NCBI GenBank assembly: GCA_964016885.1
Contig: OZ024750.1
Span: 44,020,001-44,084,000 of the forward strand
DNA from: Eledone cirrhosa
Taxonomy: Eukaryota
Direction of reading: 5' to 3'
Length of the DNA stretch: 64,000 nt
The notes beneath the pieces are model-generated. The model made no database searches. It was given only the letters and a program-made list of their open reading frames with translations, and was not told the DNA's origin. The translations under genes and the position numbers were made by a program. This document shows, piece by piece, positions 84 through 50,149 of this stretch. Position 1 is the stretch's first letter, and every line of letters begins with the position of its first letter.

Positions 84-157
<74 letters not shown>

Positions 158-158
<1 letters not shown>

Positions 159-440
159 AGGGGGTGAGTTTTATTGTAGTACAATAAAGCAATGCAGATA
201 TCGGATAAGAAGCACTCTACAGTTTGTAAGACTAGAGTATAAATAATATATAAGATCAAAAGATGGTTAAAAGAGTTGATATGTTGATTTAAAAGTGCAC
301 TATTCACAGGTGTATTTTAACCTTCATATCATGTCTTTCTATTTTATCTGACGAAAACACAAATGTTATTGGATGATGATATTTGTTTTTGAAATGCGCA
401 TAATAAAATACATGGAACTCTTTTAACCATCTTTTGATCT

Positions 441-6721: not shown

Positions 6722-7015
6722 GTAGGAGGTGAGTTTTATTGTAGTACAATAAAGCAATGCAGATATCGGATAAGAAGCACTCTACAGTTTGTAGGACTGG
6801 AGTATACATAATATAAGATCAAAAGATGGTTAAAGGAGTTCCATGTATTCCATATATGTTGATTTAAAACTGCACTATCCACAAGTGTTTTTTAGCCTTC
6901 ATATCATGTTCTCCTGTTTTATCTGATGAAAACACAAATATTATTGCATGATGATATTTGTTTTTGAAATGCGTATAATAAAATACATGGAACTCCTTTA
7001 ACCATCTTTTGATCT

Positions 7016-7020
<5 letters not shown>
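6722..7020. mobile_element. Foldback HHR element, family A copy 2
   Basis: Collinear with 158-447; both ends abut (TA)n. Confidence 0.75.
6915..6985 (+). ncRNA. Minimal type-I hammerhead ribozyme motif
   Basis: tgttttat-ctgatga(6923-6929)-stem II-gaaa(6966-6969)-tgcgta-ta-ataaaata. Confidence 0.78.
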
Positions 7021-8866: not shown

Positions 8867-9307
8867 TAATAATAATAATATTATATATAAAACGAAGGAA
8901 ATGTGGGTAGTAACCAGGTGGACTATAGTACTCAATACTGCGTAGTAGAGTGCACACTATGTACAATACGTATATACCCATATATACATTTTCGTGTTGC
9001 TGTGTTGCTGTTTGTAAATGGCGGTGCATATATAATTTATTGTTGAGGAATTCAAGTGTGTATGTATACTGAAGAAACACGGATATACACCAACCTATAC
9101 ACACATGCAAATGTGTATATGTGTGTAACTATATGCGTATATGCACTTCTCAAGTATATATATATATATATCGTTGTATGCATACGTTATAAGGGTCCGT
9201 ATGCAAATAAGGTCCATCAGCCAGGTTATATAAGAAATATCAAATACACACATTTACGAACATGAATACACGCTCAAACTCACTCGTGCTCATGTTCTTA
9301 TTATTGA

Positions 9308-11557: not shown

Positions 11558-11643
<86 letters not shown>

Positions 11644-11653
11644 AAAAAAATAT

Positions 11654-11955
11654 GAAATCGAAAATGCAACTGGAGTCTTATTCTTTTAAAAGATATATAT
11701 ATTTATTTGGTTCCTTTACTGGTTTCGCAGTTCTTCTGCTTTTCGAAAGTAAGTGAGAAAAACCACAGACCCTCCATCTCTACTCTACTTTTGAAAAGCA
11801 GAAGAACTGCGAAAACGGTAAAGGAACCAAATAAATATATATATTTAAAAAAAAAATAAGACTCCAGTTGCATTTTCGATTTCCTCTTTTGTTCTTTATA
11901 CTTTCACTCGTGTAGGACACGTCGGTTATTTTTCATTTTGTAAAAAAAACCCCAC

Positions 11956-17221: not shown

Positions 17222-17426
17222 TATAGGAACGAGTAGGATCCCGACGGCTGAGCTCAAGCCGTTTCGACGGCAAATTCTGGACTAAATTTAGTCCAGAATT
17301 AGCCGTCGAAACGGCTTGAGCTCAGCCGTCGGTGTCCTACTCGTTCCTATTACCCACTCTACTACCCTCAGTATTGAGTACTTTGGTGCGTTATGGTCCA
17401 CCTGTTTCCTTACCACATTTCCTTCG

Positions 17427-17430
<4 letters not shown>
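17222..17430 (+). mobile_element. Family I foldback mini-element (palindrome plus tail)
   Basis: ~64-bp arms around ctaaa|tttag (17286/17287); gaaacggcttgagctcagccgtc = HHR stem III plus GUC; (TA)n on both sides. Confidence 0.8.
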
Positions 17431-19939: not shown

Positions 19940-20130
19940 AACAAAGGTGTGGTAAGATACCAGGTGGACCATAACGGACCAGAGTACTCGATACTTAGAG
20001 TAGTAGAGTGGGTAATAGGAAACGAGTCAGAACCCCGACGGCAGAGCTCCGGCCTTTTAGACAGCTAGATTCGAACTAGCTGTCGAAATGGCCGGAGCTC
20101 AACCGTCGGGGCCCTGACTCTTTTCCTATA
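19940..20130 (-). mobile_element. Family I foldback mini-element (variant subfamily)
   Basis: Tail on left; palindrome centred on gacagctag-attcgaa-ctagctgtc. Confidence 0.8.
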
Positions 20131-22847: not shown

Positions 22848-22853
<6 letters not shown>

Positions 22854-23873
22854 ATACTTTGGGAGGGTCATGTTGCTAATATGAAACCAATAAGAAACAC
22901 ACGCACCAGTGATTTCCCTTCAATTTATTAAATTTTCGGTTGGTTGGTTAGTTCTATAACTGGTTGTTCACATATTGTCAAAGTTCTTTCGTCACACATT
23001 CTGTGACCGCTTCAGTGACTGGGGATTCTTTTCTTTATTTTTTATTTTGTGTCTCTCCTTTGTTCTGTCCTACGCCATCTTGTTTTTGTGTGTGTTTGGT
23101 GCTTAGTTTGCGCATGTGTTACATCCGGGTGTCTGTGTGTGTTTTTATTTGTTTATTTATTTGTTTATTTACATGTCACTAGTTGGTTGTTTGTTCAATG
23201 TGTGTGATATATATATACATATATACATGCATACATACATATATAAGCATTTTTTTTGTTTTGTTTTGTGTGTGTTTGTATGTTTTCATTTTGTCCTTCA
23301 TTATAAGTTGTGATGTTGCTATTCCATTCATGTTTTTCTATTTAATTTTGGTTGGAGTTCATTTATGCTTATTGCCTCTGTGATTTGTCTAAACATTGCA
23401 TCTTTGCTGTTTCGGATCACATCAAAATCAACATACTGATTGCGGATTTAGTGAGGGTGATGAGAAACGTGTCCCGCATGTGCAACCCCAAAGAATTAGA
23501 GAGACACATACAATATTTTATCCACCGTATGCAGTTCTCTGCCTACAATCAGAGAGGCAAAATCAGAGTATATAGAGGAGCCAGAACCAAATGGGAAAAA
23601 ATGGTAGATAATGATACAAATGGGACCTGCCCCTTGTATAGGAGCAAATTTTGGAATAGAATAGAAAGAACTGGGAATAAGGTTAATAAAATAAACTCAT
23701 GGTATGATAGCAATAAATACCAGAGTGTAATGTTCATCGATACAACCCCTAGAGGTGAACTATCTTACAAATTTAGAAGGGCCCTAGATAAACTTAAACT
23801 AAATATTAAGATAGTGGAAAGACCAGGTACCTCCATAAAAACACTAATTAGCAATACATACCTTTTTCAAAGT

Positions 23874-23876
<3 letters not shown>
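22848..23876. mobile_element. (TA)n-flanked PLE insertion: inverted 3' UTR/HHR/tail joined to an ORF fragment
   Basis: Minus-strand gtca-ctgaagc-ggtcaca...tgtgac-gaaa-gaac-tt-tgac at 22977-23019; plus-strand ORF fragment 23400-23876. Confidence 0.7.
23400..23876 (+). pseudogene. Penelope-like element protein fragment (RT thumb/linker before the GIY-YIG domain), Neptune-like
   Basis: IKINILIADLVRVMRNVS...HIQYFIHRMQFSAY...PLYRSKFWNR...SVMFIDTTP...KIVERPGTSIKTLI fits my recollection of the PLE post-RT region; ~158 uninterrupted codons. Confidence 0.7.
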
Positions 23877-25172: not shown

Positions 25173-25331
25173 ATAAGGAAAGAATTGTGAGGAGGTATCA
25201 TATGGACCATAACACACCAGAGTACTCAATACTCAGGGTAGTAGAGTGGGAAATAGGAAAAAGTATGACCCCGACGGCAGAGCTCAAGCCGTTTCGACGG
25301 CTATGGTCTAGCTGGTTTTTACCACATCCTA

Positions 25332-25337
<6 letters not shown>
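25173..25337 (-). mobile_element. Family I element, junction variant
   Basis: Tail plus pseudo-LTR end (minus) up to gacggcta, then a plus-oriented tail end. Confidence 0.75.
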
Positions 25338-25408
<71 letters not shown>

Positions 25409-28315: not shown

Positions 28316-28420
28316 TAGGAAAAAGTATGACACCGACGGCAGAGCTGAAGCCGTTTCGACGTATTGAGGACTCTGGTGCGTTATGGTCCATGTGGTTCCT
28401 TACCACAATTCCTTCGTTAT
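28316..28420. mobile_element. Family I element, non-palindromic junction variant
   Basis: Inverted pseudo-LTR end (to ttcgac) fused directly to the tail (gtattgag...ttcgtt). Confidence 0.75.
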
Positions 28421-30687: not shown

Positions 30688-30690
<3 letters not shown>

Positions 30691-30820
30691 GAGGGTGTGG
30701 TAACCAGGTGGACCGTAACGCACCAGAGTACTCAATACTTAGGGTAGTAAACCTAAGTATTGAGTACTCTGGTGGGAACAGCCGCAGCTCAGCCGTCGGG
30801 ATCCTGACTCTTTTCCTATA
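30688..30820. mobile_element. Family I element, three-piece junction variant
   Basis: Tail (minus), short foldback cctaagtattgagtactctggtg, then pseudo-LTR end (plus). Confidence 0.75.
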
Positions 30821-31242: not shown

Positions 31243-31582
<340 letters not shown>

Positions 31583-35317: not shown

Positions 35318-35320
<3 letters not shown>

Positions 35321-35511
35321 CAACGAGTAGGACCCCGACGGATGAGCTCAAGCCGTCTCGACGGCTAATTCAGTCCAGAATTAGCCATCGAAATTGCTTG
35401 AGCTCAGCCGTCGGGGTCCTACTCGTTCCTATTACCCACTCTACTACCCTAAGTATTGAGTACTTTGGTGCGTTATGGTCCACCTGGTTCCTTACCACAT
35501 TTCCTTCGTTA

Positions 35512-39236: not shown

Positions 39237-39239
<3 letters not shown>

Positions 39240-39756
39240 ATGAATATAAAATGAAAGTGCTTTTATAAAGGAATTTATTAGGTATTGACATATGTTTCTG
39301 TAACAGACGGAATATCTATGTATCGCTGCTTGCGTAATCATATAATGTTAGCAAGTATTCGATAGCAAATGTATAATCAGTTGTCACTTCTTCAGAGATA
39401 TTGGATAAATTGGAAAAAATCAGAAAAATTGAAGTACTAATATAATTACTTCAATTTTTCTGATTTTTTCCAATTTATCCAATATATCTGAAGAAGTGAC
39501 AACTGATTATACATTTGCTATCGAATACTTGTTAACATTATATGATTACGCAAGCAGCGATACATAGGTATTCCGTCTGTTAGAGAAACATATGTCAATA
39601 CCTAATAAATTCCTTTATAAAAGCACTTTCATTTTATATTCATCTTTTCTAAATTTTCTCCGGAATATAATTTATACTCGCTGAGCAAACCTACACGTAC
39701 GCTGTTCATCTCTAACGTGACGATTTATTATCACTACATTATTGATAACTTGAAAT

Positions 39757-39760
<4 letters not shown>
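39237..39760. mobile_element. (TA)n-flanked foldback with 200-bp arms plus tail; HHR-like motif with long stem II insert
   Basis: Arms 39237-39436 and 39447-39646; ctgaaga 39488-39494 ... gaaacatatgtc 39585-39596. Confidence 0.8.
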
Positions 39761-49537: not shown

Positions 49538-49761
49538 ATAGGAACGAGTAGGACCCCGACGGCTCAGCTCAAGCCGTTTCGACGGCTAATTCTGGACTAA
49601 AATCTTTTAGTCCAGAATGATTTTAGTCCAGCATTATCCGCCGAAACGGCTTGAGCTCAGCCGTCGGGGTCCTACTCGTTCCTATTACCCACTCTACTAC
49701 CCTAAGTATTGAGTACTTTGGTGCGTTATGGTCCATCTGGTTCCTTACCACATTTCCTTCG

Positions 49762-49765
<4 letters not shown>
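49538..49765 (+). mobile_element. Family I foldback mini-element
   Basis: Palindrome with a duplicated centre (ttttagtccag twice) plus tail. Confidence 0.8.
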
Positions 49766-49808
<43 letters not shown>

Positions 49809-49952
49809 AGTATATGTTGGTTGTTTACCGACACCTCAGTATGCAGATTGGAGCACTCGACGAAGTACGCAGGTTGGTTTGGTTACTCCGGAGTAATGTA
49901 AAAGAAAGTAAATAAGTCAAATATTTAAGATTTGGCTTCGTTTATTAAAGAT

Positions 49953-50011
49953 GTACTGCTATATGTATTTCGGTTATAGCCATCATTGGCTGTGACTTCT
50001 TCAGGCAGTTC
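49953..50011 (-). ncRNA. Minimal type-I hammerhead motif within TA-flanked segment 49805-50098
   Basis: Minus strand: actgc-ctgaaga-agtcacagcca-atga-tggctataacc-gaaa-tacata-ta-gcagt. Confidence 0.7.
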
Positions 50012-50095
50012 GAATTGGTGTGGAAGAGACAGGTACACATGTTGAAGTGTTTTACTCCGTCAATACTCCGATATGTCCAGCTCCTGGTTGGGTTG

Positions 50096-50149
<54 letters not shown>

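What the first reader, a model, noticed from the sequence alone, without database searches (positions are those of the whole stretch)
17222..17430. Family I: eight copies whose inversion axis sits at the putative HHR stem II
Seen: copies at 17222, 19940, 25173, 28316, 30688, 31349, 35318 and 49538. They carry gaaac-ggct-tgagctc-agcc-gtc or a variant (stem III with palindromic GAGCUC loop, GUC triplet) but never CUGANGA. Five are palindromes centred just 5' of GAAA, with different centres (ctaaatttag, actagt, agtcca, attcgaa, duplicated ttttagtccag), so they formed independently. Inference: stem II self-complementarity lets cDNA snap back, or lets two cDNAs anneal, so the ribozyme fold itself dictates the inversion and destroys the ribozyme.
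Basis: partly seen in the sequence, partly recalled or inferred. Interest (0 to 1): 0.75.

Follow-up and report, generated by a model that had tools for sequence, protein, structure and literature searches.

The report
Penelope half-copies mark capped RNA start
These mirror-image 200-base repeats are short back-to-back copies of the front end of an intact jumping gene, and their mirror point likely marks where that gene's RNA begins, in the middle of a predicted self-cutting RNA motif, which would mean that these elements first copy a short piece of their RNA's front end, much as retroviruses do.

Summary
The eight copies are real. They belong to a family with at least 9,953 palindromic copies genome-wide. 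The parent is an intact 3.54-kb Penelope-like element (PLE) with Hydra-clade motifs.

The mechanism is wrong. The parent core is UUGANAA (known U3-A8 variant) or CUGAGAA, not CUGANGA. The axis lies in loop II, not at the centre of stem II, and 69 of 70 arms never reach stem II's 5' strand. Either arm can be the longer one, which excludes snap-back.

Each insertion is two cDNAs, ending at unit +58-61 and +138-141, joined head to head in (TA)n. Both stop at one site (+1). It has an initiator-like motif and an excess of untemplated G (after a target T: G 54, C 4; background 94:40), the signature of a capped RNA end. Short copies are therefore likely strong-stop-like products, and the ribozyme's 5' half was never on the template. 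No RNA data were available.

The scan already noted Hydra elements, U3-A8 cores and two-site priming on other DNA of this genome.

The parts
17226..17286 (-). Tail-less arm of the 17222 copy: unit +58 back to -3; joined to (TA)n at the first RT start site
17287..17427 (+). Tailed arm of the 17222 copy: unit -3 to +138; +1 (inferred capped RNA start) = 17290
17297..17335 (+). 3' half of the hammerhead: stem II 3' strand, GAAA (17308-17311), stem III with GAGCUC loop, GUC (17328-17330), stem I 3' strand
   Evidence: structure from long parent copies
17348..17427 (+). 80-base tail, between the two inferred RT start sites; in the parent it continues into the 5' UTR and ORF
19941..20127 (.). Older-subfamily palindrome: tailed arm on minus (about 19941-20078, to about +1/+2), tail-less arm on plus (about 20073-20127)
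   Evidence: parent form
25173..25342 (.). Two tail-primed arms head to head: long arm on minus (25173-25304, to +10/+11) and short arm of a diverged subfamily on plus (25302-25342)
28317..28417 (.). Two non-overlapping arms: tail-less arm on minus (to +15) joined to tailed arm on plus (from +82)
30690..30816 (.). Tailed arm on minus (to +71), templated insert (30752-30774), tail-less arm on plus (from about +21)
31352..31547 (.). Palindrome with both arms to +1/-1 (centre 31409/31410), tail on the right
35320..35509 (.). Palindrome: tail-less arm to +7, tailed arm from +1 (35372)
49541..49762 (.). Palindrome: arms to about -3 (+1 = 49625), junction 49602-49621 holds a templated re-copy of the arm end
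8886..8952 (-).

Best explanation
Family I copies are pairs of short head-to-head copies of the first 60 and 140 bases of an intact Penelope-like element, likely made when its reverse transcriptase primes from both ends of a cut in (TA)n and runs off the likely capped 5' end of the RNA, which lies inside loop II of the element's predicted hammerhead. Shown: the parent element; the two fixed outer ends (+58-61 and +138-141); the pile-up of inner ends at about +1; that either arm can be longer; the excess G before +1. Inferred: (1) +1 is a Pol II start, with a minor start at -4; (2) both cDNAs usually come from one RNA or one source locus, sometimes from two; (3) the two cDNA 3' ends are joined by microhomology-type end-joining, giving the varied apexes; (4) when a cDNA instead transfers to the downstream copy of the same sequence, a long or tandem insertion results, so the short copies are strong-stop-like dead ends; (5) because the start lies inside the ribozyme, the RNA's front copy holds only the ribozyme's 3' half and cannot cut itself, while the back copy is complete and could cut at +41, leaving a 41-base terminal repeat.
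For: Parent: the unit continues upstream into a 3' UTR and GIY-YIG end and downstream into a 5' UTR and ORF (313 matches). Tandem arrays have a 3,531-3,546-bp period and an open 717-aa RT+GIY-YIG frame. Ends: in 464 kb chosen by position, 59 of 70 arms start between -4 and +8 and only 1 reaches the core; 33 of 84 arms end at +141 and 26 at +61. Short-read contig depth rises about 15-fold at +1 and falls several hundred-fold after +141. Two cDNAs: 18 vs 23 asymmetry, p=0.53; tail-less arm kilobases longer in arrays B, E and L210, tailed arm longer in A, C and L208; head-to-head joins to another family (L033, L038, L041); arms of different common haplotypes (L087, L113:6557, L082). Cap: among 100 of 164 listed arms joined directly to (TA)n at +1, the base before is G 66, C 19, A 15. 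After a target T it is G 54, C 4 (hand count), against background 94:40 (Fisher p=3e-4). At control site +12 there are only 9 such ends and 1 is T-G (p=0.016). The genomic base at -1 is T. TTAGTY is kept in old and young subfamilies while the rest of loop II differs. In 6 of 30 ORF-leading copies the element starts near +1 (+1 to +7 in five, +17 in one) behind a head-to-head arm. Jumps from +1 to +4 onto internal positions: L111, L166/167, L168, L170, L193. Literature: two internal RT start sites bounding the tail and extension of both DNA strands in vitro (PMC11167929); start site in the pLTR (PMC2377424; PMC8557442 section 10); extra G at full-length L1 5' junctions reflects capping (PMC11702581).
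Against: No RNA reads were available, so the start site, the cap and ribozyme cleavage are unobserved. The raw G:C ratio (66:19) is close to the overall background (170:64); only the T-G class is clearly enriched, and the +12 control has n=9. Many arms run to -3 or -4, so the end is not a single base. A short hairpin whose 3' strand is TTTAGTCC is predicted inside loop II of the young and middle subfamilies and could pause RT. The main subfamily in this window has a C3-A8 mismatch in its core (L181, L187, L209; 7 of 30 unselected cores have C3) and its minimum-energy fold is not a hammerhead, yet it spread and made tandem copies, so cleavage is probably not needed; PMC11167929 likewise found ribozyme mutants insert normally in vitro. 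Junctions between tandem units are seamless and fit read-through of uncut multimeric or circular RNA as well as strand transfer. 16 of 70 sampled palindromes could not be parsed. Later deletions at palindrome centres could create some of the asymmetry.
Confidence: 0.72

Rival explanations
1. Two cDNAs are joined as above, but they stop at +1 because RT pauses at an RNA structure or bound protein in loop II of a longer RNA, not because the RNA starts there.
For: Predicted inner hairpin ending in TTTAGTCC in young and middle subfamilies. 4,328 arms do read through loop II. In one other family the axis sits just before the CUGAUGA core (7 of 10 copies).
Against: A pause gives no reason for untemplated G at +1 but not at +12. 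The inner hairpin is not kept in the old subfamily, whose short copies also end at +1/+2, while TTAGTY is kept. T-runs at apexes fit tailing at a physical template end.
Confidence: 0.13
2. Family I is a self-propagating short element (SINE- or MITE-like): short copies are transcribed from an internal promoter and re-copied in trans.
For: Very high copy number relative to the ORF start. An internal promoter downstream of the start site is known for Penelope (PMC2377424).
Against: Apexes are not inherited (39 distinct of 54). Arms that pass +1 continue with parent sequence rather than apex sequence. Six of the nine haplotypes seen in two or more short copies also occur in long copies. No tRNA or other Rfam head. 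In the anole element, sequence downstream of the RT start sites is needed (PMC11167929), and short copies lack it.
Confidence: 0.07
3. One reading: stem II self-complementarity makes the cDNA snap back (or two cDNAs anneal through stem II), which fixes the axis and destroys the ribozyme.
For: The axis does fall within the stem II/loop II region of a real hammerhead fold. A few rare variants are shared by both arms (L027, L223, L225).
Against: Products would retain stem II's 5' strand and the loop of about 35 bases; 69 of 70 arms lack them. Snap-back requires the tailed arm to be at least as long as the other, which fails in 18 of 41 unequal copies and in arrays B, E and L210. Heterologous head-to-head joins exist. 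Predicted master absent.
Confidence: 0.03
4. Published proposal for PLE palindromes: self-priming on an antisense RNA template (PMC3846280, discussion).
For: Explains head-to-head geometry without two priming events.
Against: The extra G lies at the 5' end of the sense strand. Both outer ends are fixed sense-strand positions joined to (TA)n, matching sense-RNA initiation in vitro (PMC11167929). Either arm can be the long one.
Confidence: 0.04

Closest known systems
Hydra clade of C-terminal EN+ Penelope-like elements, e.g. Hydra-1_Obim (Craig et al. 2021, PMC8557442; abstract, sections 10-11, passages and supplement table rows seen)
   Same: Single RT + C-terminal GIY-YIG ORF with DKT, CxCx5C linker, CxxC and CxH motifs, no CCHH; (TA)n target; hammerhead in the pLTR; tandem and inverted 5'-truncated copies with a one-sided tail.
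   Different: Unit 3.54 kb (most Hydra under 3 kb); RWR instead of RWK; core UUGANAA or CUGAGAA with a long stem II/loop II; tail 80 bases; four Family I motifs gave no match in the one supplement file held. No tree was built.
Poseidon_Ac (PAc) of the green anole (Frangieh et al. 2024, PMC11167929; parts 1-3 of 4 read: all main text and methods)
   Same: RT starts at two internal sites that bound the tail; both target strands are cut and extended; AT-rich target; hammerhead in the pLTR not needed for insertion in vitro.
   Different: Different clade. That paper does not map the RNA 5' end, a cap-derived G, head-to-head joining of two cDNAs or strand transfer; later steps are left open.
PLE minimal hammerheads including the U3-A8 variant (Cervera and de la Pena 2014, PMC4209133; parts 1-2 of 4 read)
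   Same: Type I fold in pLTRs, long helix II, palindromic loop 3, U3-A8 core variant, opposite-strand pairs 100-700 bp apart.
   Different: Here stem III has 5 pairs and a 9-base loop, loop II is about 35 bases and holds the inferred start site, and one successful subfamily has a C3-A8 mismatch.
Palindromes at inverted pLTR junctions in Adineta vaga (Arkhipova et al. 2013, PMC3846280; discussion and passages read)
   Same: Head-to-head inverted pLTRs, tail on one side, palindromes at the junction, solo pLTRs, Inr-like motif in the pLTR.
   Different: Explained there by self-priming on an antisense template; the data here favour two sense-templated cDNAs ending at a capped 5' end.
Retroviral minus-strand strong-stop DNA and first strand transfer (recalled, from no call); L1 twin priming (recalled) and cap-derived extra G (PMC11702581, passages read)
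   Same: Priming near the RNA 5' end, a short cDNA to the cap, a repeat that allows transfer; two primers from one target cut; untemplated G at full-length 5' junctions.
   Different: The primer is cut chromosomal DNA, not tRNA; no integrase or RNase H is evident; both cDNAs cover the same 60 bases; transfer to the 3' repeat is inferred, not shown.

Membership tests
Hydra-clade PLE (parent element) | Single ORF, RT with C-terminal GIY-YIG endonuclease | tested here: met
   717-aa open frame with YRDD at 348 and VIYQC..AYIG at 591. 2,031 homologs; two of seven rescanned homologs hit PF01541, one of them above the curated cut-off. The ORF itself hit no Pfam family.
Hydra-clade PLE (parent element) | DKT in place of DKG | tested here: met
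   DKT at 117; 113 of 120 best homologs have DKT; feature
Hydra-clade PLE (parent element) | RWK motif | tested here: inconclusive
   RWR at 37; homologs RWK 83, RWR 31 of 120
Hydra-clade PLE (parent element) | CxCx5C linker, CxxC and CxH flanking motifs, no CCHH and no CX2-5CxxC | tested here: met
   CNCPDRSIC at 572, CNLC at 670, CKH at 698; no CX2-5CxxC match; one Cys only between GIY and YIG
Hydra-clade PLE (parent element) | Insertion in (TA)n | tested here: met
Hydra-clade PLE (parent element) | Placement in the Hydra clade by RT phylogeny | not tested
   No reference Hydra proteins were available through the tools; assignment rests on motifs
Type I hammerhead ribozyme (short Family I copies) | CUGANGA core and 5' strands of stems I and II | tested here: not met
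   Absent from all eight window copies; 69 of 70 arms stop before stem II's 5' strand
Type I hammerhead ribozyme (parent pLTR) | Core with a 3-8 base pair | tested here: inconclusive
   A8 in 30 of 30 unselected cores, U3 23, C3 7; old subfamily TTGATAA 20 of 30 (A8/A9 fixed by the pattern). U3-A8 is a known PLE variant; C3-A8 is a mismatch.
Type I hammerhead ribozyme (parent pLTR) | Three-way junction of stems I, II, III with GAAA and UH | tested here: met
   Minimum-energy fold of L164 is the hammerhead junction, though z=-0.84; L101 near it; L181 and L077 not. 92% of cells paired; 3 stem II pairs changed on both sides between subfamilies, which are few independent events. No Rfam match at E<=10.
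Type I hammerhead ribozyme (parent pLTR) | Self-cleavage after GUC | not testable with these tools
   Needs an in vitro assay
PLE inverted-pLTR insertion with tail | Head-to-head copy lacking the tail; tail on one end only | tested here: met
   tail 80 bases against 30-40 in PMC8557442
Retroviral-type strong-stop and strand transfer (works-like claim) | cDNA primed near the 5' end and ending at a capped start | tested here: inconclusive
   End pile-up and untemplated G; no RNA data
Retroviral-type strong-stop and strand transfer (works-like claim) | Transfer to a 3' terminal repeat | tested here: inconclusive
   Jumps from +1 to internal sites are seen; seamless tandem junctions do not separate transfer from read-through
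tRNA-derived SINE | tRNA-like head | tested here: not met
   ARAGORN 0 genes; Rfam gives only hairpin-driven matches below gathering scores; the head is part of a PLE pLTR
Non-LTR retrozyme | Non-coding tandem monomers, each with a complete hammerhead | tested here: not met
   Short copies are half-ribozyme palindromes; the tandem unit is coding; definition

The most novel reading that the evidence does not exclude
Penelope-like elements replicate by a retrovirus-like route written into their ribozyme. The promoter fires inside the hammerhead, so only the 3' copy can cut, and start site plus cut define a 41-base terminal repeat. RT makes two target-primed strong-stop cDNAs from one RNA and transfers them to that repeat. 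This would explain pseudo-LTRs, tails, tandem arrays and inverted ends in one scheme, with Family I as some ten thousand frozen strong-stop intermediates.
Probability: 0.33. Interest if true: 0.78.

Novelty: new variant of a known kind. Interest (0 to 1): 0.52.

Why it matters
How PLEs make pseudo-LTRs, inverted ends and tandems is stated to be unresolved (PMC8557442, PMC11167929), and the published explanation for the palindromes invokes antisense self-priming (PMC3846280). This family has intact young parents and about ten thousand dead-end products that map both RT start sites and the likely RNA 5' end to the base. It gives direct tests: a capped start at one position, two cDNAs per insertion, strand transfer through a short repeat, and the role of the ribozyme. 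The element class and its inverted-plus-tail layout are known; the value lies in the mechanism that the copies record.

Tried and rejected
Rfam on the whole window, on one short copy and on a parent hammerhead: no hammerhead match; the 150 listed whole-window matches (of 392) were mostly TA-repeat or hairpin microRNA families, all below gathering scores. The repeat finder was swamped by (TA)n. tRNA-SINE origin rejected. My first idea, that one palindromic master was copied as a unit, came, whose best hits share the query's apex by selection; rejected. CTGATGAG or CTGAAGAG at a few apexes (L047, L050) looked like a canonical core, but the parent has TTT at -3..-1, so these are chance junction inserts picked by the pattern. 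A trans-acting 5' half-ribozyme with CUGANGA matching the palindrome's stem: 0 matches. A 3' splice site at TTTAG: rejected because arms keep +1/+2 and -1..-3 and no constant upstream exon appears. A TATA-like box at about -29 exists in the youngest subfamily only and was not used. Pfam found nothing on the ORF. The protein atlas did not answer. RNA: the one RNA run offered was contigs with a 0.04 share, and nothing was laid from it, which is no evidence either way. The A8 count of 74 of 74 is partly built into the search anchor and was not used. Generality across other families rests on 4-10 copies each. Literature searches that found no PLE paper on these points: 'strong stop', 'twin priming' and 'cap', 'strand transfer', octopus+Penelope+palindrome+microsatellite+SINE. 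Subscription papers are not covered. The consensus sequences of PMC8557442 may not be in the one supplement file held. Of the bioRxiv retrozyme paper only part 1 of 5 was read and its supplements were not seen. Of PMC13282606 only part 1 of 3 was read; its repeat library may already hold this family under another label. Of PMC2377424 and PMC7151607 only passages were seen.

Full report
OBSERVATION. The eight copies are present between (TA)n runs and none holds CTGANGA. Five are palindromes with a unique 80-base tail on one side. The other three are also two arms head to head, but without overlap. The window lies in a 3.0-Gb genome. A palindromic pattern with two exact 16-base arms matches 9,953 places, reversed control 0. 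Earlier notes of the scan call this genome octopus-like; I did not test that.

PARENT ELEMENT. Some copies found beside targeted loci were not palindromic and shared upstream sequence (L101, L105). Patterns across that region match 1,557, 4,328 and 238 arms; the first two sets overlap. Upstream lie a 3' UTR and the end of a GIY-YIG ORF. Downstream of the tail, 313 copies continue into a 5' UTR and the ORF start. Tandem arrays give a unit of 3,531-3,546 bp with an open 717-aa frame. Its motifs (DKT, RWR, CxCx5C, CxxC, CxH, no CCHH) and the (TA)n target match the description of the Hydra clade (PMC8557442 section 11). Pfam did not recognise the ORF, and no tree was built. I number the unit from the A of TTT|AGTCC as +1. 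GAAA is +19-22, GUC +39-41, and the ATG +232.

THE HAMMERHEAD. In long copies the order is stem I, a 7-base core, stem II with a loop of about 35 bases, GAAA, stem III with a GAGCUC loop, GUC, stem I. In 30 loci chosen without constraining the core, position 8 is A in all 30, and position 3 is U in 23 and C in 7. The old subfamily has TTGATAA in 20 of 30. U3-A8 is a published PLE variant (PMC4209133). The youngest parent folds into the three-way junction at minimum energy, though not better than shuffles (z -0.84); two of the four long copies folded did not. In an alignment of 32 long copies (31 distinct), 92% of cells pair and three stem II pairs change on both sides between subfamilies; these are few independent events. 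Rfam gives no match. The subfamily of 17222, 31349, 35318 and 49538 has CUGAGAA, a C3-A8 mismatch (L181, L187, L209), so its ribozyme may be inactive.

WHERE THE ARMS END. The census used the window plus 40 stretches of 10 kb picked by position (464 kb). Of 70 arms covering GAAA to GUC, 59 begin between -4 and +8, 6 begin further 3', 4 end within loop II further 5', and 1 reaches the core. Of all 84 arms, 33 end at +141 (the end of the reference, including a TAT shared with the target) and 26 at +61. Contigs from a public short-read run show the same steps: summed depth about 0.18 million just upstream of +1, about 3 million inside, about 0.01 million past +141. This depth is a rough figure, and upstream divergence lowers it. 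The two outer ends and the tail between them match the two internal RT start sites found in vitro for the anole PLE (PMC11167929). A small bulged stem follows the second end in the fold, while the one after the first end was not in the minimum-energy fold of the short piece. Earlier notes propose such twin hairpins as start signals.

TWO cDNAs, NOT SNAP-BACK. Snap-back must start from the tailed strand, so the tailed arm cannot be the shorter. Of 70 palindromes not chosen by apex, 54 were parsed: the tail-less arm reaches further 5' in 18, the tailed arm in 23, and they are equal in 13 (p=0.53). There are 39 distinct apexes: 19 with inserts, 16 blunt, 19 with 1-4 bases of microhomology. In long insertions the same two outer ends recur, and either arm can span several units: tailed in A, C and L208, tail-less in B, E and L210. 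Three copies are joined head to head to a different family (L033, L038, L041), and window copy 25173 joins two tail-primed arms of different subfamilies. Arms usually share their subfamily: 87 of 135 agree at all diagnostic sites; most disagreements are single sites; three (L087, L113:6557, L082) pair two common haplotypes or their markers (that sample includes search-selected loci). I read this as mostly one RNA or one source, sometimes two. Later deletions at palindrome centres cannot be excluded for short copies, but they cannot explain the kilobase cases.

WHY +1. When an arm is joined straight to (TA)n at +1 and the preceding base is not T, it is G in 66, C in 19 and A in 15 of the 100 listed (of 164, hand count). 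The overall G:C ratio is near background (170:64), so it is not decisive. The class after a target T is decisive: G 54, C 4, against 94:40 in fetched DNA (p=3e-4). At +12, in the same T|AG context, only 9 such ends exist and 1 is T-G (p=0.016). The template base at -1 is T, so the G is untemplated; an extra G marks capped 5' ends in full-length L1 insertions (PMC11702581). TTAGTY is kept in 23 of 30 old copies and in young ones, while the rest of loop II is unrelated between them. It resembles an initiator, and TCATTT at -4 resembles a second one (consensus recalled, from no call). Many of the 2,594 copies with both arms reaching +1 run to -3 or -4. PLE start sites are known to lie in the pLTR (PMC2377424; PMC8557442 section 10). 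Six of 30 ORF-leading copies begin near +1 (+1 to +7 in five, +17 in one) behind a head-to-head arm. No RNA reads were available.

MODEL. Shown: parent, ends, symmetry, extra G. Inferred: the RNA starts capped at +1 inside loop II. The protein, predicted to be a dimer in the anole element, cuts (TA)n and primes from both ends at +60 and +140. Both cDNAs reach the cap. If they are joined to each other, a Family I palindrome results. If one moves to the downstream pLTR copy, it goes on into the 3' UTR and ORF and gives long, tandem or inverted insertions. Jumps from +1 to +4 onto internal positions are visible (L111, L166/167, L168, L170, L193). Exact-pattern counts suggest most arms stop (19,906 arms in 9,953 palindromes against 4,328 read-through; different patterns, so a rough ratio). 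The ribozyme is not destroyed by inversion; its 5' half is simply upstream of the start. Whether the complete 3' copy cuts at +41 to make a terminal repeat is the weakest step. The C3-A8 subfamily spread anyway, and seamless tandem junctions also fit read-through of uncut or circular RNA. In other two-armed families the axis sits just before the core (7 of 10 copies) or 75-88 bases upstream of it (4 of 5), so the position inside loop II is specific to this family.

RELATION TO WHAT IS KNOWN. The element class, the inverted copy with a one-sided tail, the U3-A8 core and two start sites are published. The published explanation of the palindromes is antisense self-priming (PMC3846280), which these data do not favour. 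Searches for PLE papers with 'strong stop', 'twin priming', 'cap' or 'strand transfer' returned none that use these terms, within an open-access library. Notes of this scan on other DNA of the same genome already report Hydra elements, a U3-A8 hammerhead with long stem II, twin hairpins, two-site priming and one-RNA arms. I had reached the two-cDNA and capped-start reading before the first look-up.

VERDICT. The feature is real. The layout is ordinary, but it is a useful record of an unresolved replication step. Novelty: new variant of a known kind. Interest 0.52; confidence in the best explanation 0.72; strong form 0.33.

Noticed in passing
window 151-440, 6722-7020, 22850-23206, 39238-39759, 49806-50096: Other (TA)n-inserted families with complete CTGANGA...GAAA hammerhead cores; the first, second and fourth are visibly two-armed with a tail.
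   Followed up: partly
window about 23600-23876: Fragment of a different PLE-like ORF; similar GIY-YIG-bearing frames occur in L116-L118 and L142.
   Followed up: no
window 11703-11834: Near-perfect 132-base palindrome between TA runs, flanked by a further inverted pair at 11641-11692 and 11845 onward.
   Followed up: no
L195-L196 (G000:C1 about 91,489,170-91,492,740): At the head-to-head junction of array A a 55-base piece of the ORF is repeated about 65 times at 98-100% identity, suggesting repeated re-copying during joining or later expansion.
   Followed up: no
L181:84-205, L187:2428-2549, L209:3032-3153: The most abundant short-copy subfamily in my sample descends from a parent with a C3-A8 mismatch in the ribozyme core, which suggests cleavage is dispensable.
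   Followed up: partly
L034, L043: Another family's hammerhead 5' half (canonical core and stem II) is fused in direct orientation to Family I near +1 to +6: template switches between families.
   Followed up: no
L170, L190, L123; G000:C1:111047106-111047247: Double-tailed palindromes in which both arms start at the +140 site.
   Followed up: no
L113:7302-7486, L031:1152-1340 and 8 more; L066:867-1305 and 4 more: Two other families have their own axis clusters: just before the CUGAUGA core (7 of 10) and 75-88 bases upstream of it (4 of 5); candidates for the same extra-G test.
   Followed up: partly
L166/L167/L227 (G000:C1 about 27,009,450-27,010,170): A 257-base piece (+1 to just past the ATG) repeated in tandem, a possible route from a PLE 5' end to a retrozyme-like short repeat.
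   Followed up: no
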